Below are positions 658-16,893 of a DNA stretch of 32,000 nucleotides, piece by piece. Both the position numbers and the translations under genes were made by a program. The stretch's first letter is position 1; every line of letters begins with the position of its first letter. The notes below the pieces were generated by a model. It searched no databases. It had not been told where the DNA came from and saw only the letters and a list, made by a program, of their open reading frames with translations. The DNA lies in NCBI GenBank assembly GCA_016700135.1, contig CP065004.1:420001-452000 (forward strand). Reading direction: 5' to 3'. The DNA comes from Candidatus Saccharimonadota bacterium. GTDB lineage: Bacteria; Patescibacteriota; Microgenomatia; UBA1406; GWC2-37-13.

Positions 658-1938
658 ATGCGGGATCTTAAAACGACTACAATCGAAACACTTACTAGGC
701 TGCAAGACATAGACATCATTGAGAGAATAGATAATTATTCCGAGCGTTTCTATGATGAGCCAAGGCACTTTTACTTTGGGACTGTGTTATCTTCTGATTA
801 TGAAAAAATTCTGAGGAAGGATTACTTTTATCATTCCGAACAGTCAATCGGAGTGGGAATATCTTTTGAATCACCCTATCATGCACTTTTAAAATCAATA
901 ATGGAAGCGGTTGAGCGTTTTTCTCAAAGATCCGTCCCTACTGATCGGATACGGTACCGAACTCTATCTGTCTCCGAACAAAAGGCTTCAATTTTTTTCC
1001 AATCTGAAGACTTAAACTTTAAACTCAAGCCGTTACAATTCGGCTTTGTGGAAGGAATGGATATGATTACAGGACAACCTGCGGAGGTCCCTGCACAATA
1101 CGTATACCTGGAGTCGTACCATAAACTGACAAATCATACTGAAACACTTTTTACCCCGGATATTTCCACCGGTACTGCGGCCGGTTTTGATGAAGAAAAG
1201 GTCCTCATGACCGGTATTTGTGAGATTGTAGAACGGGATGCTCTCATGTCACTTTACCTCAACTCGGTACCTTTGCATCCGATAGATACGCGAAGTTTAC
1301 CGTTTCAAAAGATAAAAAGGATAATAAATCTCTGCAGAAGATATCTCCTGACGCCGTATATTTTCATCATACAGACCGATTTACAGATTCCTGTCGCTAT
1401 GACAATACTGGTAGACAAGACGGGGTACGGAGCCGCTGTTTCAGTGGGTGGGGGATGCTCACCCGAGATTGAAAGTGCTATTATTCACAGTATTGAAGAG
1501 TCGCTGGCATTCCGATTTCTCATAAAACGGAAAATGAATGAGCTACGTACGACCGAATTCAATATAAAGCAAAGCGAAATTATCGACAATACATATATGC
1601 AAATGTACTGGAGCGCTTTGGATAAGATTAATGAATTATCGTTCTGGATTGATCAAGATCCTCTTCCCTATCAACATCCCGATAATCCGATACAAAAGCT
1701 CTCCGATTTTGTCTCTTTGTGTAAGAAAAGAAAGATTCCTCTGTATAATGTAAATATCACTCCAAAGCCTTTGCAAGATGCAGGAATAGTGGTGCGAAGA
1801 GCTGTTATGCCTACGCTTCAGCCATTTTATGATGATCGGACTAAACCATTTATTTATAAAAAGAGGATAGAGACGGTATCAAAAAAATTTAATAAACACA
1901 CCTATACCTTAAATCCCATTCCCCATCCGATACCATGA
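658..1938 (+). CDS. YcaO-type cyclodehydratase (azoline-forming class)
   Basis: 426 aa. YcaO hallmark blocks GVGISFESPYHALLKSIMEAVERFS and STGTAAGFDEEKVLMTGICEIVERDA. The C-terminus ...NPIPHPIP matches the PxPxP motif described for azoline-forming YcaOs. The stop overlaps the next start (ATGA). Confidence 0.85.
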   Translation: MRDLKTTTIETLTRLQDIDIIERIDNYSERFYDEPRHFYFGTVLSSDYEKILRKDYFYHSEQSIGVGISFESPYHALLKSIMEAVERFSQRSVPTDRIRYRTLSVSEQKASIFFQSEDLNFKLKPLQFGFVEGMDMITGQPAEVPAQYVYLESYHKLTNHTETLFTPDISTGTAAGFDEEKVLMTGICEIVERDALMSLYLNSVPLHPIDTRSLPFQKIKRIINLCRRYLLTPYIFIIQTDLQIPVAMTILVDKTGYGAAVSVGGGCSPEIESAIIHSIEESLAFRFLIKRKMNELRTTEFNIKQSEIIDNTYMQMYWSALDKINELSFWIDQDPLPYQHPDNPIQKLSDFVSLCKKRKIPLYNVNITPKPLQDAGIVVRRAVMPTLQPFYDDRTKPFIYKKRIETVSKKFNKHTYTLNPIPHPIP

Positions 1939-2690
1939 AAAAAATTGATATAAAAGAGCTCACTCAGACAAGAAGTCATGCGTACCAAAGATTTCATAAG
2001 AAAACGATTCTTTCGTCCATTCCTCAATTTGAGTTTATGCCTGATGAACTGCCTGAAGCAGCTACGAAAACCTACTATAAGTCGTATCCGCGATTCCCGG
2101 AGATCAAACTTCCGACGCCGGACATGAAGCTGGGAAAACTGAGCGAATCTTTTGAGCAAAGAACTTCTTCCCGAACCTTTTCCAACAAACCGGTTTCAAT
2201 GAAGCAGTTGAGCACACTTCTCCATTTCTCTGCCGGAGAACATAATAAAAATAAACGATTTTACCCTTCCGGCGGGGCAAGATATGGCTTAGAGACGTAT
2301 CTCATTTCAACAAATACTTCTCTTGAAAACGGTGTGTATCATTACTATGTTCCCGGACATTCTCTCGAAAAACTCCTTTCGATAGATACCGTAGATTTTC
2401 ACAAAGCATTTACCCCTTACAATCAAACATGGGCTAAGAATATGGGCTTCATGATTGTGATGACAGCCGTTATCGATAGAATATTCATCAAATACGGTGA
2501 GAGAAGCTATCGATTTGCGCATATCGAAGCCGGCCATATGGGGCAGAATATGTATCTGATCTCCAATCAAATCAGTCTGAATTGCTGCGGCGCAGCCGGC
2601 ATCGTTGATACATACTTTGAAAAAGTGCTGGATATCAACCTGGAAAAGGAGCCCATAATCTACACGGTGATTTTTGGCAGTATCGGTTGA
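1935..2690 (+). CDS. SagB-type (nitroreductase-fold, FMN) azoline dehydrogenase
   Basis: 251 aa. Blocks RTSSRTFSNKPVSMKQLSTLLHFSAG and RFYPSGGARYGLETYLI are typical of SagB/McbC-type dehydrogenases. Translationally coupled to the YcaO gene. Confidence 0.8.
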   Translation: MKKIDIKELTQTRSHAYQRFHKKTILSSIPQFEFMPDELPEAATKTYYKSYPRFPEIKLPTPDMKLGKLSESFEQRTSSRTFSNKPVSMKQLSTLLHFSAGEHNKNKRFYPSGGARYGLETYLISTNTSLENGVYHYYVPGHSLEKLLSIDTVDFHKAFTPYNQTWAKNMGFMIVMTAVIDRIFIKYGERSYRFAHIEAGHMGQNMYLISNQISLNCCGAAGIVDTYFEKVLDINLEKEPIIYTVIFGSIG

Positions 2691-2727
2691 TAAGTAAAGC
2701 CTAAACTGATAATGTATAACTATATCT

Positions 2728-3402: not shown

Positions 3403-3960
3403 ATGCGAACAAAAATTCATAATTATTCGAAGCCGAAAATCACTTCAAAAAAAATCAAGAGTAATTTTTTTTACAGTAAAAGAATGTATGACGGTGAGGA
3501 TCTTCTTGCCGGTATGATGGATGTTAGGATTCTTGCACGGTCCGGCTCTTGTAGCTGTTTCCCTGATTATACGAAAGTACTCCTTCCCGGCAACAATACG
3601 AAATCGATAAGAGATATTCGAGAAGGAGACACGGTGACTTCATACAATCTTGATGAGAATAGATTGACTGAGAGCAAAGTCATGGAGCAAATTATTCATC
3701 TTGATGCAAAAGTACAGTACTTTATCATCAACGGGAATATCAAGACAACCGCAGAACATCCGTTCTGGGTAAACGGAGAAAGATGGACAAGAGCCCACGA
3801 GATAAAGGTAGGAGATTGGCTGCTTACACCGACAGGTGAAAAAGTGGAAATTTCCGATATCGAGTCTTATTCCGCAGTAGAGACAGTATACAATCTTGAG
3901 CTGGAAGGAGAAGAACACAACTATTTTGCAGAAAATGTACTGGTACATAACCAACGCTAA
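3403..3960 (+). CDS. 51-aa leader-like N-terminal peptide fused to a complete Hint (intein-fold) autoprocessing domain
   Basis: 185 aa. Hint block A is C52-FPDYTKVLLPG...IRDIREGDTV, block B is TAEHPFWV, and the terminal block is VYNLELEGEEHNYFAENVLVHN followed only by QR-stop. The N-terminal 51 aa contain Y8-SKPKI and end in SGSCS directly before Cys52 (codon 3556-3558). Confidence 0.8.
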   Translation: MRTKIHNYSKPKITSKKIKSNFFYSKRMYDGEDLLAGMMDVRILARSGSCSCFPDYTKVLLPGNNTKSIRDIREGDTVTSYNLDENRLTESKVMEQIIHLDAKVQYFIINGNIKTTAEHPFWVNGERWTRAHEIKVGDWLLTPTGEKVEISDIESYSAVETVYNLELEGEEHNYFAENVLVHNQR

Positions 3961-4785
3961 TGTAAGATGTCTCCGTTTTTGAAAAATGATATAACCTTTT
4001 CCTCGTCCTTGGGGAAATCAAGGTAATAAAAGTGATTAAACTCCGCTACAAACTTCAGAAATATTTCCATTTTGTCTTTTACCTGCACACCGTCATAAGT
4101 AAAATCACCTAAAAATAAATTCAGTATCTGCTTATTGTCTTCCAGTTTTGTGACTTTGACATTCGCTCGATTTTCTCAAAAAGAAGATTTTCCTGAGAGG
4201 ATAGCTTTCCGAATGCTTAGTTAGCCACCAATTCCTTTCCCATAACGGATTTTGGAAGCAATGGAAGGTATTCCCAATCTTTAATCAGGACAAATCATCA
4301 GCAAAACGGTGGAACTTTTTCCGTAGGAGTGTACTGATTGTAGTCTTCCCCGCCCCGGATTTTCCTAAAAAAAGATATGCTCTTCCTTCGTGAATAATGC
4401 TTGATGCATGCTGAAAAAATCCGGTATCTTTTATGAGAATACTCAGAATTTCCGTAATAATATAATGAAATTGAGACGTGCTTATGGAATAATAAGTTCG
4501 GATACGATTCGGAGATTTTTGCTCATAGAGATTGATAAAGTGAAATTTGCTTTGAATACCGGGAATGACACTCATGATATTGCTTTCCCGAAACTCAATC
4601 GTATAATCAACCTTTTTGGGCTTTTCCATAGAGACAAAGTCGCGAAAAAGCATCATTATCTCTCGCTGCAATTTGTCGCGAAGAAACACCGTAAAACGGG
4701 GCTTGATCATAACGACTTTAATTGAAAAGCCGATAATATTCAGATAAAAAGTACTCATAGATCCTTGTATAATAATCAGACCCAT
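3957..4785 (-). pseudogene. HPr-kinase-like P-loop kinase paralogue, inactivated (in-frame TGA plus one frameshift)
   Basis: The ORF 4285-4785 ends ...HASSIIHEGRAYLFLGKSGAGKTTISTLLRKKFHRFADDLS-TGA (4285-4287). The same frame continues as LKIGNTFHCFQNPLWERN...YPLRKIFFLRKSSEC, collinear with the 11615 paralogue (ADD..AFQLPLEKK..PIRALFYLSQS). A 1-nt frame change near 4158 then gives KVTKLEDNKQILNLFL...FLKFVAEFNHFYYLDFPKDEEKVISFF...-TAG (3957-3959). Confidence 0.65.
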
Positions 4786-4806
4786 TATAGCCTAATCATA
4801 ATCCGT

Positions 4807-7044: not shown

Positions 7045-7895
7045 AATTTGTATTCAGTCGGGTCAGAGATACCCGCCCGGAGAAAACTTTGTTTTCTATA
7101 CTGACAGAAATAACATCTGCCGCAGTGAATTTTGTAGTTTATCGGACTGATACAGCTAAACATTTTTTCGAGCGGATATCCTTTCTCAGTAGCCCAACGT
7201 ATCAAAATATCTTTGTCCCAAAAAAATCCGAGTTCTTTCTCTAAAGCAAGGGATGTATACTGCCAGTTCATGTCACCGGTCAAAATGCAAAGATTTTGCA
7301 TCACGCTTCGCATCGCCGTCAGCGTCTCATACTTCAAACTTTCTCCGTCTGACGTGACGAATGCAGAGAAGATCGTGCGGATTGATACATTCTTTTCTTC
7401 CTGAAGAAAAAGCGCATACTCGGCAGCATTCAGGGCTAAAAGACCGCTGTAAAGAGGTAAGCCTTTCCTCTGATTTGTGTCACTACTTACAACCTCCTGA
7501 GAATGCTCGGTGATCTTCCATCTGATCTCTTTCGGAGGCATAGGAACATCCAAGTACTGGACTGTCTGAAAAAGCTTAGCATATTTTTTCTGGAAAAACT
7601 GAGAGAAGAACCGTACTGCATTTTCTTCCCGTTGGATGCGCTTATGTCCTCTCCGGAAAAAAACAGGGTAGACCTGCATCTGATACTCTTCAAGAAGCAT
7701 TCCCCAAAGTATAGTAGAGTCCAAACCACCGGATACGGTGAGGATTACCGATTCTCCTTTTTGAGGCATGCGGAAAACATATCCCCGCTTCTCCTTCAAA
7801 AAAGACTCAATGCATTTCAAGGCTGAAAGGTCTTCAAGCTTTCGCTCTATTAACATTCTCTGTAGTTGTTTACTTGTGAGTTTCGGTAATTTCAT
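7014..7895 (-). CDS. QueC-like PP-loop ATP pyrophosphatase (7-cyano-7-deazaguanine-synthase family fold)
   Basis: 293 aa. PP-loop VILTVSGGLDSTILW, and a C-terminal zinc cluster SCISPINYKIHCGRCYFCQYRKQSFLRAGISDP matching the QueC pattern C..CG.C..C..R...F...G..DP. The start overlaps the upstream stop (ATGA at 7895). Its 3' end overlaps the convergent 4807-7044 gene by 31 nt. Confidence 0.7.
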   Translation of the reverse strand: MKLPKLTSKQLQRMLIERKLEDLSALKCIESFLKEKRGYVFRMPQKGESVILTVSGGLDSTILWGMLLEEYQMQVYPVFFRRGHKRIQREENAVRFFSQFFQKKYAKLFQTVQYLDVPMPPKEIRWKITEHSQEVVSSDTNQRKGLPLYSGLLALNAAEYALFLQEEKNVSIRTIFSAFVTSDGESLKYETLTAMRSVMQNLCILTGDMNWQYTSLALEKELGFFWDKDILIRWATEKGYPLEKMFSCISPINYKIHCGRCYFCQYRKQSFLRAGISDPTEYKFHSRGPLAYS

Positions 7896-8767
7896 CAGTA
7901 ACGAATCATAAAATTGCTTTTCCTTCCCCGTTTAAATTTTTTTATATAGGGAGAATATGTTGAGACTTTGATTTCTTTCTTGTTCGGAAAGAACTGAAAA
8001 ATCCGTAAAAACCCGTTTCCGCCTTTTTCGAGATCCTGAAAATTCTGTACGGCTTGATGAACTGCTTCTCCGCACGTATTAGCACTCATTATATAATTCT
8101 CTCCCGTTTGTGTATGAAAATGACCGGAGAGAACTAAACGGATATTGCAGTTTGTCTTGATAAGTTTATGCCAGATATCCTCACCGGCATTACCGAGACC
8201 GCCATAATGAGATATATCGCTCCGGTACGGCAGATCGTCGTAGACAAATGCATGTGTCGCAATTACGGCCATTGTATCACGGTGCCGTTTCAAGATGTTG
8301 TCAGCCCATTGCAGAATCTTATCTGACGGATCAATCTGCAGATGAATAAAAAGGAGAGAGAATGTGTCAACAACAATATGCTGATAACTATTCTGATTCC
8401 CGAGGTATCCTCCTCCGTACCATGATTGTTTTCGGAATTTCTTTATCGGGAAAAAATGATTATAAGTCTGGAAAGAAACTTGTTCATCGTCATAAAAATC
8501 AGCATCATGATTCCCGGGCGCCAAAGCATAAGGAATAACTCCATCAAGCTTGGACAGTTCTGCCGCCATTTTGTGCCATTGTGTCTGATCCGCTGAATTA
8601 TCATCAACGATATCCCCCAAATGCGAAACGAATCGGATGTTTAGTTTCTCCTTTTCCTTCAATATCCAATCCAGTTGTGCTGAAAAAATTTCAGGATATT
8701 TCGACGCATAGAGTTGTGTATCTGACAAAACAATAACGGAATAAAAGGGATTATGCCGAAAAAACAT
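7895..8767 (-). CDS. Calcineurin-like metallophosphoesterase
   Basis: 290 aa with the canonical motif series VLSDTQ, HLGDIVDD, APGNHD, ATHAF and LSGHFH. Confidence 0.8.
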   Translation of the reverse strand: MFFRHNPFYSVIVLSDTQLYASKYPEIFSAQLDWILKEKEKLNIRFVSHLGDIVDDNSADQTQWHKMAAELSKLDGVIPYALAPGNHDADFYDDEQVSFQTYNHFFPIKKFRKQSWYGGGYLGNQNSYQHIVVDTFSLLFIHLQIDPSDKILQWADNILKRHRDTMAVIATHAFVYDDLPYRSDISHYGGLGNAGEDIWHKLIKTNCNIRLVLSGHFHTQTGENYIMSANTCGEAVHQAVQNFQDLEKGGNGFLRIFQFFPNKKEIKVSTYSPYIKKFKRGRKSNFMIRY

Positions 8768-8772
8768 ATGAT

Positions 8773-9759
8773 TTATTGTATCCTGACACCCATCACATAG
8801 GCGGGATCTATCTTTGCGGAAATAATAAACTCATCTCCCGGTGAAACAGATAACTTTTTGTTTGCAGAGGCCTTCAAGACACCCTGCGGAGGAATATTCA
8901 GATTCTGTGCCAGATTCTGAACATGGTTTCTACTGAGTAAATCAATCTTTAACTTAGCACTTCCCAATGTTCCGAAATGCCCATCTTTATTGAATATTCC
9001 TGTATCTTTGGTATCCCCCACTGCCACTTCAACACGAGAAAAGGTGTACTCATGATGCACTACGATATGAAGGCTTTTATCCTTCACGTAATAATTATCT
9101 CCTTTTTCTGACAACAGGAATGACGGTTTTTCGCTAGAGTTAAGGAGAACAGCGTGCGGATACTGACCTTTAAATGAAATACCTCCTCCAAACTGCTCCC
9201 GAGATTTATGCTTCAGATCTGCAAAAGCAGTACCGGGAGAAAAAATTAAGGTTTGTTTAGGAGTCGTATCCTCCGGAAAAAAATCCATATCAAGAGAGTG
9301 TATAACAGAAGTTGCTCCCACTCCTTTTCCGCTATTTATAATGCATATGGCTTGCGGAAGCAGCTTCCCCGAGTAATATGGCCAGTCATGAAGCGCTTCT
9401 ACCTCCGGGTTATCCTCTTCTCGATATTCGGCAAGTTTATCTCCGAACGGTACAGCTGCAAACTGCTTGGTTCCCCAGAACGTCCAAGAATCTGTTTTTT
9501 TATCAAATACAAGAACACGTGAATACGCAGGTTCAGAATCCCAGTTCTTTTGTGCAGGAAGACTGGCTTTTCGATGTGCGAGCGTAATCAAATCAAGAAC
9601 TTTTGTATGAAACATTTCAGGAATAGACACGACTACGGCTTCACCCTGATGGAGGACAGTATTCAGTACACTTGAAAAAGAACATTCCTTTATAACGCTT
9701 ACTGAATGTACTGACTGAATAATCGTCGGATCGCCGGGAATAATCGGCAGCTTATGCAT
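8773..9759 (-). CDS. Hypothetical protein (328 aa) inside the PqqD-to-QueC-like operon; no recognised domain
   Basis: Long ORF with protein-like composition. It overlaps the upstream PqqD-like gene by 8 nt and lies 5 nt from the downstream gene. I recognise no motif. Confidence 0.6.
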   Translation of the reverse strand: MHKLPIIPGDPTIIQSVHSVSVIKECSFSSVLNTVLHQGEAVVVSIPEMFHTKVLDLITLAHRKASLPAQKNWDSEPAYSRVLVFDKKTDSWTFWGTKQFAAVPFGDKLAEYREEDNPEVEALHDWPYYSGKLLPQAICIINSGKGVGATSVIHSLDMDFFPEDTTPKQTLIFSPGTAFADLKHKSREQFGGGISFKGQYPHAVLLNSSEKPSFLLSEKGDNYYVKDKSLHIVVHHEYTFSRVEVAVGDTKDTGIFNKDGHFGTLGSAKLKIDLLSRNHVQNLAQNLNIPPQGVLKASANKKLSVSPGDEFIISAKIDPAYVMGVRIQ

Positions 9760-10045
9760 GAGAAGATTTTGTGGGTTTCTTTTCGATTAGTAATTTTTTC
9801 TTCATAAGTTTGTCTACAAACTCTTTCGTATCTTTCAGGGCTTTCTCCTGATTAATTTCATACTCATCGACCAGATATTTTACAAGATCACTAAAAGTCG
9901 CACCTTTTTTTAGCTGCTTGAAAAGATCAGCAGCCGTTTCGTTGAGGGTATGCAAAATTGAGGTTTCACCGTCGAAGATAAATACCTCCTCATTCACCTG
10001 CTGGACAACGAGGTCTTTTTTGAGTTTATATTTTGATTTCTTCAT
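9752..10045 (-). CDS. PqqD-family protein (RiPP recognition element-like), copy 2
   Basis: 97 aa. VVQQVNEEVFIFDGETSILHTLNETAADLFKQLKKGATFSDLVKYLVDEYEINQEKALKDTKEFVDKLMKKKLL fits the PqqD pattern (beta strands, then LN.t....w, then a 3-helix bundle). Confidence 0.75.
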   Translation of the reverse strand: MKKSKYKLKKDLVVQQVNEEVFIFDGETSILHTLNETAADLFKQLKKGATFSDLVKYLVDEYEINQEKALKDTKEFVDKLMKKKLLIEKKPTKSSHA

Positions 10046-10311
10046 ACGCTCTCAACTATATGTAACTTGACCAGTGACTGGATAAATGTCTTAACCTCCT
10101 TTTTGGCGTTGTTATTTGATATCTCGTACTCCTTCGTTAATGAAGCTATTATTTGCACCAATGTTTTTTTTTCTTTCAGGGACTGAAAAATGATAGAACC
10201 CGTTTCGTTAAACGTATAGAGTTTTGACTCTCCAGCATCAAAAATAATTATTCCTTCCGGAACCTTCTGAACAATAGCTCCCTTTCTGATTTCATATTTC
10301 TTTTCAGCCAT
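10042..10311 (-). CDS. PqqD-family protein (RiPP recognition element-like), copy 1
   Basis: 89 aa. IVQKVPEGIIIFDAGESKLYTFNETGSIIFQSLKEKKTLVQIIASLTKEYEISNNNAKKEVKTFIQSLVKLHIV. Overlaps copy 2 by 4 nt. Confidence 0.75.
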   Translation of the reverse strand: MAEKKYEIRKGAIVQKVPEGIIIFDAGESKLYTFNETGSIIFQSLKEKKTLVQIIASLTKEYEISNNNAKKEVKTFIQSLVKLHIVESV

Positions 10312-10337: not shown

Positions 10338-11618
10338 ATGTCTGCAAAAAATAATGTAACAATTGATCTAAGAACTACCGATCACATTAAGTCATTCGGC
10401 CACAGCATGTACCCGATTCTTCACAACGGAGATATTATTTATTACAAAAAAACTCCTTATCAAAAAATCAAACTGAATGACATAATCATCTCCCAAAAGA
10501 ACAACCTTTATGTCACCCATAGAGTTATATATAAAACTTCGGATTATATTATTACAAAGGGAGATAATAATTTAGAAATTGACGAGCCGCTCTTGCCTGA
10601 ATCAATCATCGGTGTTGTAAATAAAGTACAACGAGGCAAAGTAACGTTTATCCCTGAAACCTATTACCTCCTCCAGTCTTCAATATATTACCAACATATA
10701 CATTCCGTGATTAAGGAAATGGAGCGCCATACGATCTCCTATGTATTGCTAAAAGGACTCCCTCTGCATCTAAAATATCACCAGGAACACCCGCGAAAAG
10801 GTTTTTTTGATTTTGATATTCTTATTTCTCCCACAGATAGAGACGTACTTATGAAAATACTGAATGATCTCGGTTTTAAAAGACGATATGATTTCCTTTC
10901 ACCAACCCACGAAAGACTTATGAACAAATCTATCGAAGAAACATGTATGAAGAAATTTGAAGGATTTAATATCGCAGTTGATATCCATTATGAAGCTGTA
11001 TTTATGATGACTCAGATCGGAACACTCAACCCTCTATATCATCAGAGCTACATTGACGGATTCACAAAGGAACTTTTTAACAATACCGTCACTTTTCAGG
11101 AACACGATCTTAAATGTCAGTTGCTTACTGATGAGTATCTCTTCGTATATCTCTCTCTACATTTTTTTCATCATAATTTTAAAAGTCTTCATCGACTAAA
11201 CCTAATCGCAGCGCTAATTCAATCAATTCCACGAGCAAAGCGTCACGGATTCTGGAAATCTGTTTTTTCTATCATTCACAAGTATCGTCTGCAAGGATAT
11301 ATTTACGGAACATTTATAAGTTTAGAAAAATACCTTCCGGCAACAAGTATTCCACAATGGTTCTTGAATAAAATACGACCGGGCAAAGCTCAATGTAATT
11401 ATTTAAAAAACTACTTTCTCACAGAGCATATTTATGAAGAATACAACGCTACCCGCGCCGGGATCTTATTATTTACACATCTATATATTCTTTCATATAA
11501 TCCATGGTACAAAAAAATACTCGTTTTTTTACAACCTGCAGTCATTTTCATGATGGTATGGCTTGTATACTATTACGTTACAACAAGATGTAAAAAATTA
11601 CTCCGTACATTTCTATGA
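10338..11618 (+). CDS. Fusion of an S24/S26-type serine peptidase domain and an NTP_transf_5-type nucleotidyltransferase domain, with a C-terminal TM helix
   Basis: N-domain: SFGHSMYPILHNGDIIYY...VTHRVIY...ITKGDNN (signal-peptidase/LexA-like G-x-SM-x-P block). Middle: ISYVLLKGLPLHLKYHQEHPRKGFFDFDILISPTDRDVLMKILNDLGF, matching the 'uncharacterised nucleotidyltransferase' family seen in lasso and sacti clusters. C-terminal: ILVFLQPAVIFMMVWLVYYYV. Confidence 0.65.
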   Translation: MSAKNNVTIDLRTTDHIKSFGHSMYPILHNGDIIYYKKTPYQKIKLNDIIISQKNNLYVTHRVIYKTSDYIITKGDNNLEIDEPLLPESIIGVVNKVQRGKVTFIPETYYLLQSSIYYQHIHSVIKEMERHTISYVLLKGLPLHLKYHQEHPRKGFFDFDILISPTDRDVLMKILNDLGFKRRYDFLSPTHERLMNKSIEETCMKKFEGFNIAVDIHYEAVFMMTQIGTLNPLYHQSYIDGFTKELFNNTVTFQEHDLKCQLLTDEYLFVYLSLHFFHHNFKSLHRLNLIAALIQSIPRAKRHGFWKSVFSIIHKYRLQGYIYGTFISLEKYLPATSIPQWFLNKIRPGKAQCNYLKNYFLTEHIYEEYNATRAGILLFTHLYILSYNPWYKKILVFLQPAVIFMMVWLVYYYVTTRCKKLLRTFL

Positions 11619-12418
11619 AGAACTCCGTAATTATCCTGAATACTGCCGCTATATATATTGCTATCGATTTATCACGAATAGCTGATCCTGATATCTTAAA
11701 AGCGCTCTCGGATCAAATCTCTACGTTCTATAAGATGGAGATTGTTAGGAATTTTAAGAAGAAACCGGATTTCACCATTTACTACGTTGCTGATGAAGAA
11801 TACCGATTTGTAAAACAGCAAATAAGGAAAGGAACCAGTATTAACTACTTCTTGGAAACCTTTAGCATTGGAGAGGACTCGGCAAAAATCCACTATCATG
11901 TAAGTATTGCTCAATTCCAATTCTTCTTAAAATTAATCTTACAATCGATTCTCGGGTCCCGAAAGGGTTTCATACTTCACTCCTCCGGAATCACAGACGA
12001 TCAGCATGCATTTCTGTTTTTAGGTCCGAACGGGATCGGAAAATCTACCATCGTAGATAACCTTTCACAAAAATATCGTCCCTATGCAGACGATATGGTG
12101 ATTGTCAGGAAAATTGAACGGGAGTGGTACGCTTTTCAGCTTCCTTTGGAAAAAAAACGTTATAAAAAGATCCCAGATTCAAAAATGCCGATTCGGGCAT
12201 TATTCTATCTGTCTCAAAGCAAAAAAACCAAATTACAGAAAATCTCTTCTACAGAGGCTAGTAAAAAGCTTCTTGACCAACTCATAAGAAACGGTCTCAC
12301 AAAAAAAAATATAACATATCTTTTTGAATTTTTAGCTTTTGTAGATCACTACATTCTTGAAACTCCGAAGAAGACTGCTATAAAAACTATTGAAGGATTA
12401 GTCAGCTCTTATCAGTAA
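11615..12418 (+). CDS. HPr-kinase-like P-loop kinase (RiPP precursor Ser-kinase type)
   Basis: 267 aa. GFILHSSGITDDQHAFLFLGPNGIGKSTIVDNL...YADDMVIV resembles the HprK C-terminal catalytic domain fold found in lasso-peptide kinases. 4-nt overlap with the upstream gene. Confidence 0.7.
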   Translation: MKNSVIILNTAAIYIAIDLSRIADPDILKALSDQISTFYKMEIVRNFKKKPDFTIYYVADEEYRFVKQQIRKGTSINYFLETFSIGEDSAKIHYHVSIAQFQFFLKLILQSILGSRKGFILHSSGITDDQHAFLFLGPNGIGKSTIVDNLSQKYRPYADDMVIVRKIEREWYAFQLPLEKKRYKKIPDSKMPIRALFYLSQSKKTKLQKISSTEASKKLLDQLIRNGLTKKNITYLFEFLAFVDHYILETPKKTAIKTIEGLVSSYQ

Positions 12419-12833
12419 GACGTTTTTTTAAAGAATCAATCTCTTTCTGCTGATCTTGGACCGCCTGCACAAGAAGTGATATTACGCCGGCATAATCTAC
12501 CCTCAACAGGCCGGATGTTTCAACAACAGACTCCGGGAGAACATCCCGAACATTTTGGGCGATCAGCCCTGCCGACTCCTTTGAAGTCCCTTTCCATGTG
12601 TACGTAACCGGCTCCAACTTCATCACTCGTGAAATTGAGTTCTTGAGAGGCTTCACAGAAACCTTTAACGACTTATCCGAATAAATAATCGGCAGATACA
12701 GGCTGTTGCTTGCGGCATATACCTCATTCATAAGTAAACCCTCAAGTAACGTATCGTCGTGATACCTTGAGAACAGATTTAATTGTATTTCCTCGACAGA
12801 TACCGACGGTGGAATAAATTTCTTTTTTTGCAT
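12402..12833 (-). CDS. 52-aa leader-like N-terminal peptide fused to a Peptidase_S74 (intramolecular chaperone, self-cleaving) domain
   Basis: 143 aa. From S52: SDKSLKVSVKPLKNSISRVMKLEPVTYTWKGTSKESAGLIAQNVRDVLPESVVETSGLLRVDYAGVISLLVQAVQDQQKEIDSLKKRL. This matches the S-D-x-x-x-K start, the G.IAQ.V..v.PE.V block, the VDY block and the terminal coiled coil of the endosialidase/tail-fibre chaperone domain. Only 52 aa precede it. Confidence 0.75.
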   Translation of the reverse strand: MQKKKFIPPSVSVEEIQLNLFSRYHDDTLLEGLLMNEVYAASNSLYLPIIYSDKSLKVSVKPLKNSISRVMKLEPVTYTWKGTSKESAGLIAQNVRDVLPESVVETSGLLRVDYAGVISLLVQAVQDQQKEIDSLKKRLTDKS

Positions 12834-13420: not shown

Positions 13421-14875
13421 CTACTGATTTCTTACCGATTTTTCATAATAGCAGTCAAGATTGTTCGCATGACACCAAGCTGAAAACCAATCTCTATCTT
13501 CAAACTGCATTTCGGGATAAAGAATCGTATATTCCCGCAGATGCTTCTCAACATATGACCGTGCATCTTCTTCTGAGCGGACAAGCGACATTAATTCAAA
13601 CACCTTTACTACGTAGCCGGTATCCCGGGGGGCGCGATTTAGTGCTGATAGATAGTACTGCAATGCTTTTGAATTATTTCCTATTGACGAATTGAATCTT
13701 CCAAGAAATGACATATCAAAAGGGACATCTCTATAGAGATACGCATACTTGTTAATTAATATCTCCATTTGATTAAATTTCTGATTTCTATATAAATCCG
13801 CAATCTGATAACGATACCCCTTATCATTTATTGGATAGAGCCGTAACGCCAAAGAAGAATTCCCCCGCGCATTTACGTACGAAGATACGAATATTCCTAC
13901 ACCAAATAGAGCAACAAGGAAGGATACTGATTTCAATAGTATCGAACCATGAATAGATGCTTTTTCTTCGTATAAAAGAGCTCCGCAAATAAAAAAGAAT
14001 ACAAACAAAAATGCCATAAGGTGATAATAATTGAATTCAAAGAGGACAAACAATCCAATAAAAACTGAGCCGATTACATTATTAATAACTCGTTTCCTGC
14101 GCATTTGACGGATTACCTTACGAGTCACCACAAATATGATGAGTGCAAACGTCAGAAACGAAACGATCCCATGTTCAGCAGCGATATCGATAAATAAGTT
14201 ATGGCTTGTGCTGACGACATAATCAATGTTTTTAGAATAATAAAGACTGGCGTAGTAAAAATTCCCTCCACCATAGCCTGTTAAAGGGCGTTCTCGAATG
14301 GCTTGCAGTGCTGTCGTAATAAACCCTATTCTTCCGTTATCAAAATCTTTATAGTGAAAAGCTGTTTCGTCACGGATGACAACTGTACGAAGTTGAGAAA
14401 TAACCGGGATTTCTGTTTGGTCTGCAAACGGAATGAGAAGAAATAGGACTGTTACTAGCGCTACTAGCAGTGAAATTTTATAGTTTCTGATGCTCTTGAA
14501 GACAGCATTGTTCGTGAGATAATCGACCATAATAACTACCAACATCCCAAGATACGCTGACCGCAGATAGCTCAGCCACAACAGTATCGATAATAAAAAT
14601 ACTGATACGATAGATGCTGTCGTTCGCCTATGGCGCATATATACGAAGGAAATTATCAGCAATAAGAATACAAATACTCCTTGGGGATAATGTGTTAAAT
14701 CTACTACGCGATAGATAAGCTGATCATCATGAGTTGGTACTATATTAGAAAAGATAGGATGCTCCGTTAATAATAATCCGCTATACAACAAGCTGAGGAG
14801 TGAAGATACCACAATAAACGGGACTACGTATTTCTGTATTTGATTTGCATTGTTGTAAACATAGATAAATATCAA
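13421..14875 (-). CDS. O-antigen-ligase-like (Wzy_C) polytopic membrane protein with a C-terminal TPR-like tail; main part
   Basis: Many TM helices. Wzy_C signature STSHNLFIDIAAEHGIVSFL. C-terminal soluble part ALQYYLSALNRAPRDTGY is TPR-like. The listed start is a TTG inside the homopolymer-affected region. Confidence 0.7.
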   Translation of the reverse strand: MIFIYVYNNANQIQKYVVPFIVVSSLLSLLYSGLLLTEHPIFSNIVPTHDDQLIYRVVDLTHYPQGVFVFLLLIISFVYMRHRRTTASIVSVFLLSILLWLSYLRSAYLGMLVVIMVDYLTNNAVFKSIRNYKISLLVALVTVLFLLIPFADQTEIPVISQLRTVVIRDETAFHYKDFDNGRIGFITTALQAIRERPLTGYGGGNFYYASLYYSKNIDYVVSTSHNLFIDIAAEHGIVSFLTFALIIFVVTRKVIRQMRRKRVINNVIGSVFIGLFVLFEFNYYHLMAFLFVFFFICGALLYEEKASIHGSILLKSVSFLVALFGVGIFVSSYVNARGNSSLALRLYPINDKGYRYQIADLYRNQKFNQMEILINKYAYLYRDVPFDMSFLGRFNSSIGNNSKALQYYLSALNRAPRDTGYVVKVFELMSLVRSEEDARSYVEKHLREYTILYPEMQFEDRDWFSAWCHANNLDCYYEKSVRNQ

Positions 14876-15095
14876 AAAAAAAAGAAACTATATAGAGGAA
14901 ATATTCAAATGCTGTCTGGATATGTACGGCATAAATTGCTGACAACAGTGTTGTAATGATAAAAAGGATCATTAATAATCCCAAGTTATAAAGAATTCGT
15001 ATCTGTACTTTGGATCGGATATACGTACTAAAAAAGCAAAAAGGAGTAATATAAAGAAGTATCATTGTGTTGTTCTCACCAGGAATAATCCCCAC
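14781..15095 (-). CDS. Probable N-terminal TM segment of the same Wzy_C gene, separated by the A10 (T10 on the coding strand) run at 14874-14883
   Basis: The ORF reads ...AFEYFLYIVSFFF then goes out of frame. Removing one T from the T10 run gives ...YIVSFFLIFIYVYNNANQIQKYVV, which is the start of the 13421-14875 ORF. The text is hydrophobic and TM-like. Confidence 0.5.
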   Translation of the reverse strand: MGIIPGENNTMILLYITPFCFFSTYIRSKVQIRILYNLGLLMILFIITTLLSAIYAVHIQTAFEYFLYIVSFFFDIYLCLQQCKSNTEIRSPVYCGIFTPQLVV

Positions 15096-15180
15096 AAATT
15101 GAGAAGATACAGGAGAAACAAAAAAAGATAAAACAAAATGACGCGAAGTTTTGTAATCATTGACTTAAAGTATACAGTGA

Positions 15181-16887
15181 ATGTGGTTTTTTCACATTTT
15201 AGTTGCTATTATAATAAGTATGCATAAGCAAGCTAATCGAGTAGTGCGGGTGCTTTTTTTCCTTCTTGTATCGTCGCTTGCCCTTTCCTATGCTAAAGGC
15301 GTCTCTGCTGCAGGACAGTGTGGGACACAAGATGATCGGCACTATCTGAATGTGCGTTTTTATGATGAAAACGGCAATATATGGGCTACGAACGCCCCTG
15401 ACGGAGGACAGACAGTACAGCTTTCAGGATGCCGTCCGCCTCCCGAGAGAGCACCTGTACAAGTAGGCCGACCTGATCTCCCGGATACACCTATGGACAA
15501 CTGGGTTGATGGTAGCGGCAACTGGAGGAGATGGATTTGTCGGGACAACCTAGCGACTGCTCAAATTAGAACATATCGCTGTGACACATTACCTCCGAAC
15601 GAGTTTGTCTATATTGATGTATGGACATATCCTCCATATGACCCGAATCTGACGGAATGGACATATATCGATACGGGAGACGGCGAGACATTTTCCGGAG
15701 TCGGGCCTCGGGTGACAATTCCGAATTCTGATTTACAGGATGACTCTAGCGGGAGATACCATCTGAATGTACAGATGGTTCTGGCTACCACCGACATTCA
15801 GGGTTTTAAAGTCAAAATGCCAGGAAACTATACCAGTCCGTCAACCGATAATCAGACGGTCACTCTTGCAAATGGCGCAACAACAATAGCCACGACGACT
15901 GCTAACCCCTATTACTTTCTTGATCTTGATCCGCAGCCCACCTATACGGTATCAGTGACACAACCTGCCGTAAACTACGCCGTCGGATATACTCTTTGTT
16001 TCAATGCTACAAATTGCCATACAAGCGGTATAACTATGGGAAATGCCGCTACTTTCAATTCTCCTGCCGGCGGATACAGCGACCTTTGGTGGCATTATTG
16101 GGAGTATATCGGTTGGTATCGACTAAAACAGGCATCCTTTACTAAACAAGGGGCGATCGTCAACTTTATTCCGGTGAATACCCTCCCTTATGACGCTTAT
16201 GATACAAACCAACCACTCCTGAATATTCGCCAGGCAGCTGAACCGGATGGGGTGGGGCTGGTAACATCAGGGGGCGGGATTGATCTTGGTCCTGGTAACG
16301 GAGCTACCGTCCCGGCTGTATCCCAGAAAAACTGGGCAAAGCTCACATACTCTGCAAACAAAGGATATCTTTCCAATCTCGGATCTTTCCTATCTTATGC
16401 CAGAGCTAAAAAGGAAATAAAAACGATAACCAATATCAATGATCTGGAATCAAATAAAATCAATATTTTTCAGGGAAACCTGACCCTTCAAAACAACACC
16501 ATCAATCCTTCCCGAGACAACATGGTGTTAATCGTCCAGGGCAATCTGACAATTCAGAGTGCCCCCGGGAACAACTTCAATCAGGCGCGAAGATCCTGGG
16601 GGTTCATTGTCACAGGTCAAATCAATGTAAATCCTTCAATAAATGAAATGAACGGGGTGTTTATCGCCAACAACTTCGATCTCGCATACGGCGCAGCAAC
16701 CAGCACAACACCTCTGAAAGTGGTCGGAAATCTGATCTCAAATACACCGCTCACCAATATTAAAAGATATCGTCCTGTTGCGGATTACCAAAGAGCATCG
16801 CTGTATGTCGTGTTCTATCCTGAGTACTATTATGACCTTGTGCCTTACCTCTCTACTATCACACAGGAAGGACGCCAGCTGGAGTAA
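15181..16887 (+). CDS. Secreted protein of unknown function (signal peptide; Thr/Asn-rich; repeated beta-strand-like QGNLT motifs near the C-terminus)
   Basis: 568-aa ORF. Signal-peptide-like RVVRVLFFLLVSSLALSYAKGVSAAGQ; the start may be Met14 at 15220. Near the C-terminus: IFQGNLTLQNNTI, LIVQGNLTIQSAPG and GVFIANNFDL. No family recognised. Confidence 0.6.
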   Translation: MWFFHILVAIIISMHKQANRVVRVLFFLLVSSLALSYAKGVSAAGQCGTQDDRHYLNVRFYDENGNIWATNAPDGGQTVQLSGCRPPPERAPVQVGRPDLPDTPMDNWVDGSGNWRRWICRDNLATAQIRTYRCDTLPPNEFVYIDVWTYPPYDPNLTEWTYIDTGDGETFSGVGPRVTIPNSDLQDDSSGRYHLNVQMVLATTDIQGFKVKMPGNYTSPSTDNQTVTLANGATTIATTTANPYYFLDLDPQPTYTVSVTQPAVNYAVGYTLCFNATNCHTSGITMGNAATFNSPAGGYSDLWWHYWEYIGWYRLKQASFTKQGAIVNFIPVNTLPYDAYDTNQPLLNIRQAAEPDGVGLVTSGGGIDLGPGNGATVPAVSQKNWAKLTYSANKGYLSNLGSFLSYARAKKEIKTITNINDLESNKINIFQGNLTLQNNTINPSRDNMVLIVQGNLTIQSAPGNNFNQARRSWGFIVTGQINVNPSINEMNGVFIANNFDLAYGAATSTTPLKVVGNLISNTPLTNIKRYRPVADYQRASLYVVFYPEYYYDLVPYLSTITQEGRQLE

Positions 16888-16893
16888 GTTGAG

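What the first reader, a model, noticed from the sequence alone, without database searches (positions are those of the whole stretch)
12402..12833. Second candidate precursor: 52-aa leader-like peptide fused to a Peptidase_S74 self-cleaving chaperone domain, outside any phage context
**Seen:** residues 52-143 match the intramolecular-chaperone/Peptidase_S74 domain of endosialidases and tail fibres. They begin with S52-D-K-S-L-K57, which has the same Ser to Lys+5 spacing as the Ser/Lys dyad that cleaves after the Ser in that family. They continue with SAGLIAQNVRDVLPESV, VDYAGVISLLVQAVQ and a terminal coiled coil.

**Known:** this domain normally sits at the C-terminus of very long fibre proteins and is cut off after folding. 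Here only 52 residues precede it and no phage structural genes are nearby. The gene ends convergently, with a 17-nt overlap, against the HPr-kinase-like gene of the cluster.

**Inference:** autocleavage would release MQKKKFIPPSVSVEEIQLNLFSRYHDDTLLEGLLMNEVYAASNSLYLPIIYS with a free C-terminal Ser. That is the residue type that lasso-associated HprK-like kinases phosphorylate and NTP_transf_5 enzymes further decorate.
Basis: partly seen in the sequence, partly recalled or inferred. Interest (0 to 1): 0.85.

Follow-up and report, generated by a model that had tools for sequence, protein, structure and literature searches.

The report
Peptide precursor with self-cleaving tail-fibre domain
A 143-residue protein of a Candidatus Roizmanbacteria genome joins a peptide-natural-product leader and a short core to the self-cleaving chaperone domain of phage tail fibres, which suggests that this domain serves here as a self-removing tail on a modified-peptide precursor.

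Summary
ORF 12402-12833(-) encodes 143 aa. Residues 52-143 are a complete Peptidase_S74 / intramolecular-chaperone domain, and Ser52/Lys57 sit on the catalytic dyad.

The N-terminus is not a fibre remnant. Residues 1-42 belong to a large leader family (Y/FxxPx[IVL]...N[FL]F...[VY]A[QA]S). About 60 of its representatives are free 39-99-aa peptides. About 16 are fused to self-cleaving Hint domains, one of them in this window at 3403-3960.

Free peptides with the same "YLP" core occupy the same gene slot in relatives. That slot lies in a conserved five-gene module:
- a membrane-anchored protein;
- the precursor;
- a ScmC/HprK-like P-loop protein;
- a signal-peptidase-I::NTP_transf_5 fusion;
- a PqqD recognition protein.

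The module matches the linear polyphosphorylated peptide (LPP) class described in 2026 in Bacillota. It sits in a glycan locus of a candidate-phyla-radiation bacterium.

In characterised S74 proteins the cut falls before the catalytic Ser. The released peptide should therefore end at Tyr51, not at a free C-terminal Ser52. By analogy with LPP, the kinase target is more likely a Ser near the leader/core junction. Cleavage and modification are inferred, not shown.

The parts
12402..12833 (-). Precursor gene, 143 aa: leader + core + S74 self-cleaving domain. NCBI names it 'tail fiber domain-containing protein'.
12708..12833 (-). Leader, residues 1-42 (MQKKKFIPPSVSVEEIQLNLFSRYHDDTLLEGLLMNEVYAAS). 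It carries F6-x-x-P9-x-V11, I16, N19-L-F21 and A40-A-S42.
   Evidence: An independent leader HMM aligns residues 1-43. hhalign against the Hint-fused leaders gives E = 3.5e-6.
12681..12707 (-). Predicted core, residues 43-51 (NSLYLPIIY), the 'YLP' core. The alternative boundary by LPP analogy is after F21, giving a core of residues 22-51.
   Evidence: The same core occurs in free precursors P0074 and P0084 and in the Hint-fused P0095. The boundary itself is inferred.
12405..12680 (-). Peptidase_S74 / intramolecular chaperone auto-processing domain, residues 52-143. Ser52 and Lys57 form the dyad. The predicted cut is Tyr51|Ser52. A C-terminal helix (about 114-141) corresponds to the trimerising coiled coil.
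   Evidence: Cut position from PMC8326128 and PMC4690869.
12838..13329 (-). N-terminally membrane-anchored 163-aa protein, 4 nt upstream of the precursor. It is a constant partner of the precursor slot. Function unknown.
   Evidence: Found at the same position in L001, L008, L013, L015, L017 and L099. The alignment is weak but collinear (A5).
11615..12418 (+). ScmC / HprK-like P-loop protein, the predicted peptide kinase. It converges on the precursor gene with a 17-nt overlap.
   Evidence: TIGR04249 ScmC E = 3.4e-11. PF27840 ScmC in relatives. The family profile matches HPr kinase 1ko7 over 79 residues, E = 0.0019.
10338..11618 (+). Fusion of an archaeal/SipW-type signal peptidase I domain (residues about 20-97: S23 in GHSMYP, H61 in THRV, GDNN) with NTP_transf_5 (residues 115-330). 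Predicted leader peptidase plus phosphate-decorating transferase.
   Evidence: TIGR02228 E = 3e-15 and PF14907 E = 4.3e-17. The same fusion occurs in L001, L013, L015 and L017.
10042..10311 (-). PqqD-type RiPP recognition element, 89 aa. Assigned to the S74 module.
   Evidence: PF05402 E = 2e-13. Lasso-type PqqD models. PDB hits PbaB1 9x90, TfuB1 and LppB 9x8z. The relative L099 has this single PqqD with the S74 module.
9752..10045 (-). Second PqqD recognition element, 97 aa, 39% identical to the first. It probably serves the Hint-fused precursor.
   Evidence: The single PqqD of the S74-less relative L005 scores higher against this one (72.8 against 60.5 bits).
3403..3960 (+). Paralogous precursor, 185 aa: same leader family, core ...ARSGSCS, then a Hint (intein-like) domain that starts at Cys52 and ends in His-Asn.
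658..2690 (+). YcaO cyclodehydratase (658-1938) and nitroreductase-type dehydrogenase (1935-2690). Both belong to the Hint-precursor module, not to the S74 module.
   Evidence: Conserved next to Hint precursors in L005 and L007; in L003 and L004 the nitroreductase is identified and the upstream gene, cut by the contig end, has no family on record.

Best explanation
The gene encodes the precursor of a ribosomally made, post-translationally modified peptide. Its biosynthetic module is of the LPP (linear polyphosphorylated peptide) type.

**Proposed steps (all inferred)**
1. The leader (residues 1-42) is bound through its F/YxxPx[IV] motif by the 89-aa PqqD recognition protein.
2. That protein presents the precursor to the ScmC/HprK-like P-loop protein. 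Predicted action: phosphorylation of a Ser, most likely near the leader/core junction (S22 or S42/S44).
3. It also presents the precursor to the signal-peptidase-I::NTP_transf_5 fusion. Predicted action: leader removal and decoration of the phosphate.
4. The C-terminal S74 domain (residues 52-143) acts as a self-removing follower. It folds, trimerises through its C-terminal coiled coil, and its Ser52/Lys57 dyad cuts the Tyr51-Ser52 bond.
5. The leader-core peptide is thereby released from a soluble trimeric carrier and ends at Tyr51.

**Shown here**
- Domain identity.
- Leader family membership.
- Equivalence of the gene slot with free precursors.
- Conservation of the module.

**Inferred**
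- Cleavage, its exact position, the modification chemistry and the leader/core boundary.
For: 1. The S74 domain is complete and the dyad is invariant.
2. All relatives are 143-154 aa, and the N-terminal 51 residues are as conserved as the domain.
3. A leader profile finds 86 representatives among 1.84 billion proteins. Most are free peptides of 39-99 aa with Cys/Ser/Gly-rich cores, and about 16 are Hint fusions.
4. A leader HMM built without any S74 or YLP member aligns residues 1-43 of the window protein at 24.1 bits. That is above every unrelated segment among 11,341 ORF segments. It scores the more canonical S74 relative P0030 at 38 bits.
5. hhalign of S74 leaders against Hint leaders gives 87.6% probability, E = 3.5e-6.
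6. Free precursors with the same core occupy the same slot. These are P0074 (...VYLPYISNNP...) and P0084 (...IWLPYISNNP). The slot lies between the membrane-anchored protein and a convergent ScmC, next to SpI::NTP_transf_5 and PqqD.
7. The five-gene module recurs with a 41%-identical S74 precursor, alone in a glycan locus with no YcaO or Hint gene.
8. Two unrelated self-cleaving domains, S74 and Hint, sit at the same place directly after the core of homologous precursors. This argues that self-cleavage is the selected property.
9. The gene set matches the characterised LPP system: SpI-like leader peptidase, discrete recognition protein, HprK-like kinase and NTP transferase in a polysaccharide locus (PMC13381572).
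Against: - No experiment shows cleavage or modification.
- In phage S74 proteins, cleavage needs an Arg supplied by a correctly folded upstream triple beta-helix (R897 in endoNF, R1250 in pb1). Residues 26-51 here hold no Arg or Lys. Cleavage would have to be of the MyRF type, independent of upstream folding.
- The AlphaFold model was unusable (mean pLDDT 38.7), so the active-site geometry is untested.
- The window's own leader is a divergent member: 24.1 bits, Phe in place of the 91% Tyr, and Glu-Glu where the family has Lys-Lys.
- Generic S74 proteins also carry a hydrophobic or aromatic strand just before Ser-Asp. Examples are ...AFLYTSD and ...YNPVIGSD. Part of the 'core' could therefore be a structural element of the domain.
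- The Hint-fused YLP relative P0095 would be cut 8 residues further downstream. The three follower types therefore do not define one common C-terminus.
- The ScmC protein scores well below the curated ScmC cut-off (43 against 125 bits). Its kinase activity is assumed.
Confidence: 0.62

Rival explanations
1. It is a precursor whose S74 domain is a permanent trimerisation scaffold. The domain is not cut off. It holds three copies of the leader-core together, or presents them to the enzymes or the envelope, and the functional product is the modified trimeric protein.
For: - The S74 domain is an obligate trimer whose coiled coil drives assembly (PMC8326128).
- No upstream Arg sensor is present (sequence).
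- LPP precursors of up to 200 aa with variable C-termini are reported, and the characterised LPP core of 45 aa stays attached to whatever follows it (PMC13381572).
Against: - Ser52 and Lys57 are invariant down to 41% identity.
- Homologous precursors carry a Hint domain, a second kind of self-cleaving module, at the same position.
- Free precursors do without any C-terminal domain.
Confidence: 0.17
2. It is a small surface or fibre-like S74 protein, or the remnant of a prophage tail-fibre gene. It merely lies next to a peptide-modification cluster, and the N-terminal resemblance to leaders is fortuitous.
For: - NCBI annotates it as a tail fiber domain-containing protein.
- Short cellular S74 proteins of 190-230 aa exist.
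- BLAST alignments to some long S74 proteins extend weakly upstream to residues 7-37.
- Terminase genes lie 11-13 kb away.
Against: - All eight relatives have the same short length and a conserved N-terminus.
- The N-terminus matches an independently built leader model better than any of 11,341 unrelated ORF segments.
- Free leader peptides with the same core replace it in the same slot.
- The module travels with it into loci without phage genes.
- The other short S74 proteins have signal peptides or fibre-like repeats and no YxxP leader.
- An upstream out-of-frame fibre sequence is excluded: a conserved membrane-protein gene ends 4 nt upstream.
Confidence: 0.05
3. One reading: autocleavage occurs after Ser52. 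The 52-residue peptide is released with a free C-terminal Ser, which the HprK-like kinase phosphorylates and NTP_transf_5 decorates, as in paeninodin-type lasso peptides.
For: [quoted passage not shown]
- A Ser follows the hydrophobic core in all YLP precursors, free ones included (...YLPYIS-NNP). This Ser may therefore matter beyond catalysis.
- HprK-like kinases of paeninodin-type clusters are cited as close functional relatives (PMC13381572).
Against: - MyRF is cut between P586 and S587 by mass spectrometry.
- In T5 pb1 and K1F the Ser leaves with the chaperone, and the phi29 density was called less convincing.
- In free precursors the Ser is not C-terminal.
- In LPP, the closest gene set, the kinase acts on core Ser3 next to the leader.
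- The module has no lasso cyclase and no B2 peptidase.
Confidence: 0.12

Closest known systems
Linear polyphosphorylated peptides (LPP) of Bacillota (Popov et al., Nat Commun 2026, PMC13381572)
   Same: - Archaeal/SipW-type signal peptidase I as leader peptidase.
- Discrete lasso-type PqqD recognition protein.
- HprK-like P-loop kinase.
- Uncharacterised NTP transferase (NTP_transf_5).
- A leader with [Y/F]xxPx[VLI] followed by an aromatic residue and a Ser.
- Location inside polysaccharide-biosynthesis loci.
- No macrolactam cyclase.
- A second peptide pathway with a similar leader and its own recognition protein in the same locus.
   Different: - The host is a candidate-phyla-radiation bacterium; the paper calls LPP restricted to Bacillota.
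- The peptidase and the transferase are fused into one protein.
- There is no MsbA-like exporter; a single-pass membrane protein is present instead.
- The leader belongs to a different, longer family that continues to ...VYAQS.
- The kinase is of the ScmC branch.
- The precursor ends in a self-cleaving S74 domain. The paper and its supplements do not mention this.
Intramolecular chaperone auto-processing (ICA / Peptidase_S74) domains of phage endosialidases and tail fibres, and of the eukaryotic transcription factor MYRF
   Same: - Same domain with the Ser-x4-Lys dyad and a terminal coiled coil.
- As in MYRF, the domain would be used outside a virion to release an N-terminal functional part.
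   Different: - Only 51 residues precede it, against a median of about 460.
- There is no triple beta-helix and no upstream Arg sensor.
- The released part would be a modified peptide, not a folded fibre or a DNA-binding trimer.
Hint-fused precursors of the same leader family (window 3403-3960 and about 16 representatives), next to YcaO, a dehydrogenase, ScmC and PqqD
   Same: - Homologous leader.
- A self-cleaving domain begins directly after the core.
- Same accompanying ScmC, PqqD and small membrane protein.
   Different: - A different autoprocessing chemistry: Cys-based N-S acyl shift with a thioester, against Ser/Lys hydrolysis.
- Cys-rich cores and azole-forming enzymes.
- Monomeric rather than trimeric.
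- Not described in the searched literature either.
Paeninodin-type phosphorylated lasso peptides
   Same: Lasso-type PqqD recognition protein, HprK-like kinase and NTP_transf_5-type transferase.
   Different: - The module has no asparagine-synthetase-like cyclase and no B2 cysteine peptidase.
- The core lacks the ring-forming Asp/Glu pattern.
- The predicted released peptide ends in Tyr, not Ser.
RiPP precursors with large protein-like appendages (nitrile-hydratase-like leaders, borosin precursors fused to their methyltransferase, bottromycin follower peptide); from the reviewer's own knowledge, apart from nitrile-hydratase-like leaders, which one listed abstract describes
   Same: A folded protein domain, or a C-terminal follower, is attached to the core.
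   Different: None of these appendages is an autoproteolytic domain that removes itself.

Membership tests
Peptidase_S74 / ICA domain | Sequence match to the family profile above the curated threshold, covering the whole domain | tested here: met
   PF13884 scores 49.6 bits against a cut-off of 22, E = 4.9e-13. Residues 50-142 match the C-termini of tail-fibre PHROGs, E = 1.4e-24. PDB 6f45_A, E = 1.2e-5.
Peptidase_S74 / ICA domain | Catalytic Ser and Lys five residues apart, aligned with the family dyad | tested here: met
   S52 lies at profile position 1. S52/K57 lie over S/K of 6f45. Both are invariant in relatives.
Peptidase_S74 / ICA domain | C-terminal helix that forms the trimeric coiled coil | tested here: inconclusive
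   The alignment to 6f45 and the PHROGs runs to residue 141. A helix at 114-141 appears in the model, but the model has pLDDT 38.7. Trimer formation was not tested.
Peptidase_S74 / ICA domain | Upstream triple beta-helix with an Arg that completes the active site (phage type) | tested here: not met
   Residues 26-51 contain no Arg or Lys, and only 51 residues precede the Ser. MyRF shows this feature is not universal.
Peptidase_S74 / ICA domain | Autoproteolytic release of the domain | not testable with these tools
   Needs protein expression with S52A/K57A controls.
LPP RiPP gene cluster (PMC13381572) | Archaeal-type signal peptidase I with a Ser/His/Asp catalytic set | tested here: met
   TIGR02228 E = 3e-15. 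GHS23MYP, TH61RV and GD76NN are readable in the sequence. Present in four relatives. Here it is fused to the NTP transferase.
LPP RiPP gene cluster (PMC13381572) | Discrete PqqD-type recognition protein | tested here: met
   PF05402 E = 2e-13. Lasso PqqD models E = 1.5e-11. PDB hits PbaB1 2.2e-5 and LppB 0.026.
LPP RiPP gene cluster (PMC13381572) | HprK-like kinase | tested here: inconclusive
   ScmC model at 43 bits, below the cut-off of 125. HprK_rel_A E = 0.005. The family profile matches HPr kinase 1ko7 over 79 residues, E = 0.0019, with a conserved H...GxxGxGK[ST]...DD pattern.
LPP RiPP gene cluster (PMC13381572) | NTP transferase of the uncharacterised NTP_transf_5 type | tested here: met
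   PF14907 E = 4.3e-17.
LPP RiPP gene cluster (PMC13381572) | MsbA-like export pump | tested here: not met
   No ABC exporter appears among the ORFs of the window, nor in L099 within 10 kb.
LPP RiPP gene cluster (PMC13381572) | Precursor leader with the YxxPxVLxHQxIxFETxxS motif | tested here: not met
   Only the [Y/F]xxPx[VI] part, a downstream aromatic residue and a Ser are shared. The spacing and the rest differ, and the leader is about 20 residues longer.
LPP RiPP gene cluster (PMC13381572) | Polyphosphorylation of a core Ser | not testable with these tools
   Needs mass spectrometry after co-expression.
Lasso peptide cluster | Asparagine-synthetase-like macrolactam cyclase and B2 transglutaminase-like peptidase | tested here: not met
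   Neither is found in the module here or in L013/L099. The QueC-like PP-loop protein at 7014-7895 travels with the Hint module.
Phage tail fibre / tailspike gene | Long N-terminal fibre or enzymatic part and neighbouring virion genes | tested here: not met
   51 residues against a median of about 460. No virion genes lie within 10 kb, and the context is conserved and non-phage.
YcaO-dependent azol(in)e peptides | YcaO next to a precursor with a Cys/Ser/Thr-rich core | tested here: not met
   The core NSLYLPIIY has no Cys. The S74 module occurs without YcaO in L099. The YcaO in the window pairs with the Hint precursor.

The most novel reading that the evidence does not exclude
Bacteria of the candidate phyla radiation have at least twice attached an autoproteolytic protein domain to the C-terminus of a peptide-natural-product precursor: the trimeric phage-type S74 chaperone and the Hint/intein-like domain. 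This would make 'self-removing follower domains' a design principle of peptide biosynthesis. In the S74 case, folding and trimerisation would time the release of three leader-core peptides for an LPP-type phosphorylation and glycosylation pathway in a cell-envelope glycan locus. It would be the first use of this phage domain in a peptide pathway and the third independent host context after virions and MYRF.
Probability: 0.5. Interest if true: 0.88.

Novelty: new variant of a known kind. Interest (0 to 1): 0.8.

Why it matters
**If the S74 domain cuts itself off**
- It would be a new way of defining the C-terminus of a modified peptide without a dedicated protease.
- It would be a new biological role for a domain known only from phage fibres and MYRF.
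- It would offer a ready-made, traceless, trimerising and self-cleaving tag for peptide engineering.

**Wider points**
- LPP-type machinery, described only in 2026 and thought to be confined to Bacillota, would extend to ultra-small uncultivated bacteria, where it sits among O-antigen-type glycan genes.
- The finding exposes a leader family of at least 86 representative proteins that links three chemistries (YcaO, radical SAM, kinase/NTP transferase) through a shared ScmC + PqqD pair.
- Current annotation calls the gene a tail-fibre protein, so genome-mining tools would miss it.

Tried and rejected
- **BLASTP of the two N-termini:** S74 against Hint precursor found nothing. Profile methods were needed.
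- **BLASTP of the two small membrane proteins:** nothing found. A multiple alignment suggests weak homology only.
- **AlphaFold2 on the six-sequence alignment:** mean pLDDT 38.7. The model was unusable, so no fold search was run.
- **Literature searches:** none linked S74, Hint or intein-like domains to RiPP precursors. None covered ScmC or peptide clusters of Patescibacteria. The LPP paper turned up by chance.
- **Genome-collection scan with the family alignment:** returned only generic S74 proteins. These served for the length distribution. The one other short ORF (L048, 144 aa) has no leader.
- **Context of P0095 (Hint-fused YLP core):** could not be retrieved.
- **Word-indexed search with the YLP alignment:** added no new S74 fusions.
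- **Lasso reading, considered and rejected:** no cyclase or B2 peptidase is present.
- **Truncated-fibre reading, considered and rejected:** the length and N-terminus are conserved, and a conserved upstream gene abuts the start codon.
Full report
**1. The observation**

- Pfam places Peptidase_S74 (PF13884) on residues 52-103. The score is 49.6 bits against a curated cut-off of 22, E = 4.9e-13. Ser52 sits at profile position 1.
- PHROG profiles of tail fibres and baseplate proteins align residues 50-142 to their last 90-100 positions. The best E-value is 1.4e-24, across 36 families.
- The solved long-tail-fibre protein 6f45_A aligns over residues 51-141, E = 1.2e-5. There S52-D-K-S-L-K57 lies over S-D-R-R-I-K.

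So the domain is complete and the Ser/Lys(+5) pair is in register. The 17-nt convergent overlap with gene 11615-12418 is correct. The source is a 1.45-Mb contig of a Candidatus Roizmanbacteria genome, where NCBI calls the protein 'tail fiber domain-containing protein'. The window has 36.8% G+C.

**2. It is not a broken fibre gene**

- A search of 5.8 billion proteins found five relatives, all 143-144 aa, at 57-85% identity.
- The N-terminal 51 residues are as conserved as the domain.
- A 154-aa relative at 41% identity, P0030, and its cluster mate P0114 have the same architecture.
- A conserved gene for a membrane-anchored protein ends 4 nt upstream. That leaves no room for an out-of-frame fibre.
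- In 62 complete S74 ORFs from other genomes, the part before the Ser-Asp motif has a median of about 460 residues, range 46-2104. The few short ones carry signal peptides or fibre-like repeats, not this N-terminus.

**3. What the N-terminus is**

The window holds a second odd small protein, 3403-3960(+), 185 aa. About 51 residues precede a Hint/intein-like domain that begins at Cys52 and ends in His-Asn. Its relatives at 40% identity have Cys/Ser/Thr/Gly-rich stretches such as CITGGSATCYPPSCASSVPGCCT directly before the Hint Cys. These stretches look like azole-peptide cores.

BLASTP sees no similarity between the two N-termini. A profile-profile comparison does: 87.6% probability, E = 3.5e-6 over 43 columns.

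A profile of 13 such N-termini was searched against 1.84 billion representative proteins. It found 86 proteins at E ≤ 1e-3:
- about 60 are free peptides of 39-99 aa;
- about 16 are Hint fusions of 181-214 aa;
- two are S74 fusions;
- one carries a third kind of C-terminal domain.

The leader consensus runs as follows, with column frequencies. It opens with basic residues. Then come Y (91%, F 8%), x, K, P (99%), x, I/V/L, four residues, I/V/L, two residues, N, F/L and F (94%). S/T, R and D-S follow further along. The leader ends in [VIL]-[LYF]-A (77%)-[QA]-S, after which the variable cores begin.

To avoid circularity, I rebuilt the leader model from 91 sequences with every S74 or 'YLP' member left out.
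- It aligns residues 1-43 of the window protein at 24.1 bits. That is above every unrelated segment among 11,341 ORF segments from the window and all fetched loci.
- It gives 38 bits to P0030 and 52-55 bits to the free YLP peptides.

The leader therefore spans residues 1-42, and NSLYLPIIY (43-51) is left as the core.

**4. The gene slot**

The same core occurs in free precursors:
- P0074: ...EVYAYTVYLPYISNNPPPEPEPDPGGGGS;
- P0084: ...DVYANTIWLPYISNNP;
- one Hint fusion, P0095...SSIYLPYISKSGGIGGR-CF....

P0074 and P0084 lie exactly where the S74 protein lies. Each sits downstream of a 167-185-aa membrane-anchored protein and converges on a ScmC gene, with a 4-nt overlap. NTP_transf_5 and PqqD are adjacent.

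The S74 relatives all show the same order: membrane protein, S74 precursor, ScmC, NTP_transf_5, PqqD. In L099 this five-gene module stands alone among Wzy_C, Bac_transf and glycosyltransferase genes. No YcaO or Hint gene lies within 10 kb.

Conversely, relative L005 has the Hint precursor at 65% identity with YcaO, dehydrogenase, ScmC, decarboxylase, QueC-like, phosphoesterase, the 328-aa protein and one PqqD. It has no S74 module.

The window therefore holds two modules side by side. Each has its own precursor, ScmC (32% identical) and PqqD (39% identical).

**5. The partners**

- *Gene 10338-11618* fuses an archaeal/SipW-type signal peptidase I domain to NTP_transf_5. The peptidase match is TIGR02228, E = 3e-15. 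GHS23MYP, TH61RV and GD76NN are readable in the sequence. The NTP_transf_5 match has E = 4.3e-17. The fusion is conserved in four relatives.
- *Gene 11615-12418* belongs to the ScmC branch of HprK-like P-loop proteins. TIGR04249 gives E = 3.4e-11, below the curated cut-off. A family profile matches HPr kinase 1ko7 over 79 residues, including the region before the P-loop and the Asp-Asp after it.
- *The 89-aa PqqD* matches lasso-type recognition proteins: PbaB1 2.2e-5, TfuB1 3.1e-5 and LppB 0.026.

**6. The closest known system**

Popov et al. (Nat Commun 2026, PMC13381572) describe linear polyphosphorylated peptides.
- The clusters sit in capsular-polysaccharide loci of Bacilli.
- They encode an SpI-like leader peptidase (LppS), a discrete recognition protein (LppB), an HprK-like kinase (LppK), an uncharacterised NTP transferase (LppN) and an MsbA-like pump.
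- The precursors are 35-200 aa, with a YxxPxVLxHQxIxFETxxS leader and highly variable C-termini.
- LppK places several phosphates on core Ser3.
- LppS, helped by LppB, cuts after Thr-1.
- The authors call the family restricted to Bacillota.

The module here shares four of the five core genes, the glycan-locus setting and the YxxPx[VLI] motif. The differences:
- the leader family;
- the peptidase-transferase fusion;
- the missing pump;
- the phylum;
- the S74 follower, which neither the paper nor its supplements mention.

No paper in the searchable library links S74 or Hint domains to peptide precursors.

**7. Where the cut falls**

The literature points the other way.
[quoted passage not shown] S587/K592 are the equivalents of endoNF S911/K916 (PMC8326128).
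[quoted passage not shown] The same was seen for K1F. Only the phi29 appendage was modelled with the Ser retained, on weaker density (PMC4690869).

The released peptide should therefore end at Tyr51 (Phe or Ile in relatives). That removes the proposed free C-terminal Ser.

The same papers raise a caveat. Phage domains need an Arg from the folded upstream triple beta-helix, and residues 26-51 here have no basic residue. MyRF cleaves independently of its upstream stalk, so a MyRF-like mode is possible but untested.

**8. Mechanism proposed**

Shown: domain identity, leader family, slot equivalence and module conservation. The following steps are inferred.
1. The PqqD protein binds F6-x-x-P9-x-V11.
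2. ScmC phosphorylates a Ser.
3. The SpI domain removes the leader.
4. NTP_transf_5 decorates the phosphate.
5. The S74 domain trimerises and cuts Tyr51|Ser52.

Two leader boundaries remain open:
- after S42, where the family's conserved region ends, the variable cores begin, and A-x-S fits the -3/-1 preference of signal peptidases;
- after F21, by positional analogy with LPP. The aromatic residue falls 13-15 residues after the Tyr and a Ser 16-18 after it in both families. This would make S22 the analogue of LPP Ser3.

The strongest argument that self-cleavage is the selected function is convergence. Two unrelated autoprocessing domains sit at the same position of homologous precursors, and free precursors show that no C-terminal domain is needed for recognition.

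The argument has one weak point. The Hint fusion with the YLP core would be cut eight residues further on, so the three follower types do not give one common C-terminus.

**9. A further inference on leader discrimination**

- In the window the S74 leader reads F-I-P-P-S-V-S-V-E-E-I-Q. The family, and the co-resident Hint leader, read Y-x-K-P-x-I-x-x-K-K-I-K.
- In L013 and L099, where the S74 module is alone with one PqqD, the S74 leader is canonical: YIKPKLFIKKIRLN.
- This fits the idea of Popov et al. that co-resident pathways diverge in leader and recognition protein to avoid cross-talk. I did not test it.

**10. Verdict**

The finding is real and is not an artefact or a prophage remnant. 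It is best filed as a new variant of the LPP-type peptide pathway in a candidate-phyla-radiation bacterium. Its precursor carries a phage-type self-cleaving domain as follower.

The architecture and the context are right. The cleavage position, and hence the C-terminal-Ser chemistry, are probably wrong. Interest is high because the architecture is undescribed, directly testable with one small recombinant protein, and potentially useful.

Noticed in passing
window 3403-3960 (+): A Hint/intein-like fusion precursor of 185 aa with the same leader family. Its core ...ARSGSCS runs directly into Cys52-Phe of the Hint domain, and the C-terminus reads VHNQR. Ten aligned relatives of 185-192 aa and further representatives up to 214 aa lie next to a nitroreductase and ScmC, with YcaO identified in L005 and L007. 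An N-S acyl shift would leave a C-terminal thioester on the core.
   Followed up: partly
window 3963-4785 (-) and 2728-3379 (+): Two genes of the Hint module are interrupted. The ScmC paralogue has an in-frame TGA after ...RFADDLS and a frameshift near 4190, whereas the L001 orthologue is an intact 267 aa. The small membrane protein shifts frame at a poly-A tract near 3000, whereas the L005 orthologue is 214 aa. These may be pseudogenes or long-read indel errors. All genes of the S74 module are intact.
   Followed up: partly
window 24159-27176 (-): Terminase large subunit (phrog_38, E = 7.9e-57), terminase small subunit and two N6/N4 DNA methylases, with no capsid, portal or tail genes in view. 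This is probably a prophage or island remnant. Genes 18489-20346 also match phage protein families of unknown function.
   Followed up: partly
L001 about 2650-2830 (-) and L008 (minus strand): A third, free precursor of the same leader family (MKKKFVSPSIKSKKVQVNFFSTSRVVDGEMLLSHALLAQSGCGYTIYQCMNPNCTGVCI). In L001 it lies next to a radical SAM protein and another ScmC. It was not called as a gene in the collection. No counterpart is found in the window.
   Followed up: no
P0043 (156 aa; cluster of 9 members): The same leader is fused to a third kind of C-terminal domain, which begins CFITTAVCSSFGLPDDNPILNTLRQFRDTYM. It has no Pfam match. It starts with Cys-Phe, as the Hint domains do.
   Followed up: no
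window 4765-9759: A TPR + histidine-decarboxylase-like PLP enzyme (759 aa), a QueC-like PP-loop ATPase (293 aa), a calcineurin-like phosphoesterase (290 aa) and a 328-aa protein with no family match. All four are conserved with the Hint module in L001 and L005. Their roles are unknown. An amine made by the decarboxylase could in principle capture a Hint-generated thioester.
   Followed up: no
window 12708-12833 compared with L013/L099: The S74 leader of the window clade has Phe for the family Tyr and Glu-Glu for Lys-Lys. This clade carries two PqqD genes and two precursor types. The S74 leader in single-PqqD loci is canonical. This may reflect leader discrimination between co-resident pathways.
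   Followed up: partly
window 13421-18126: Two Wzy_C (O-antigen ligase/polymerase-like) membrane proteins flank a 568-aa protein with no family match. The trio is conserved next to the S74 module in L001, L008 and L015. This suggests a link between the peptide and an envelope glycan.
   Followed up: no
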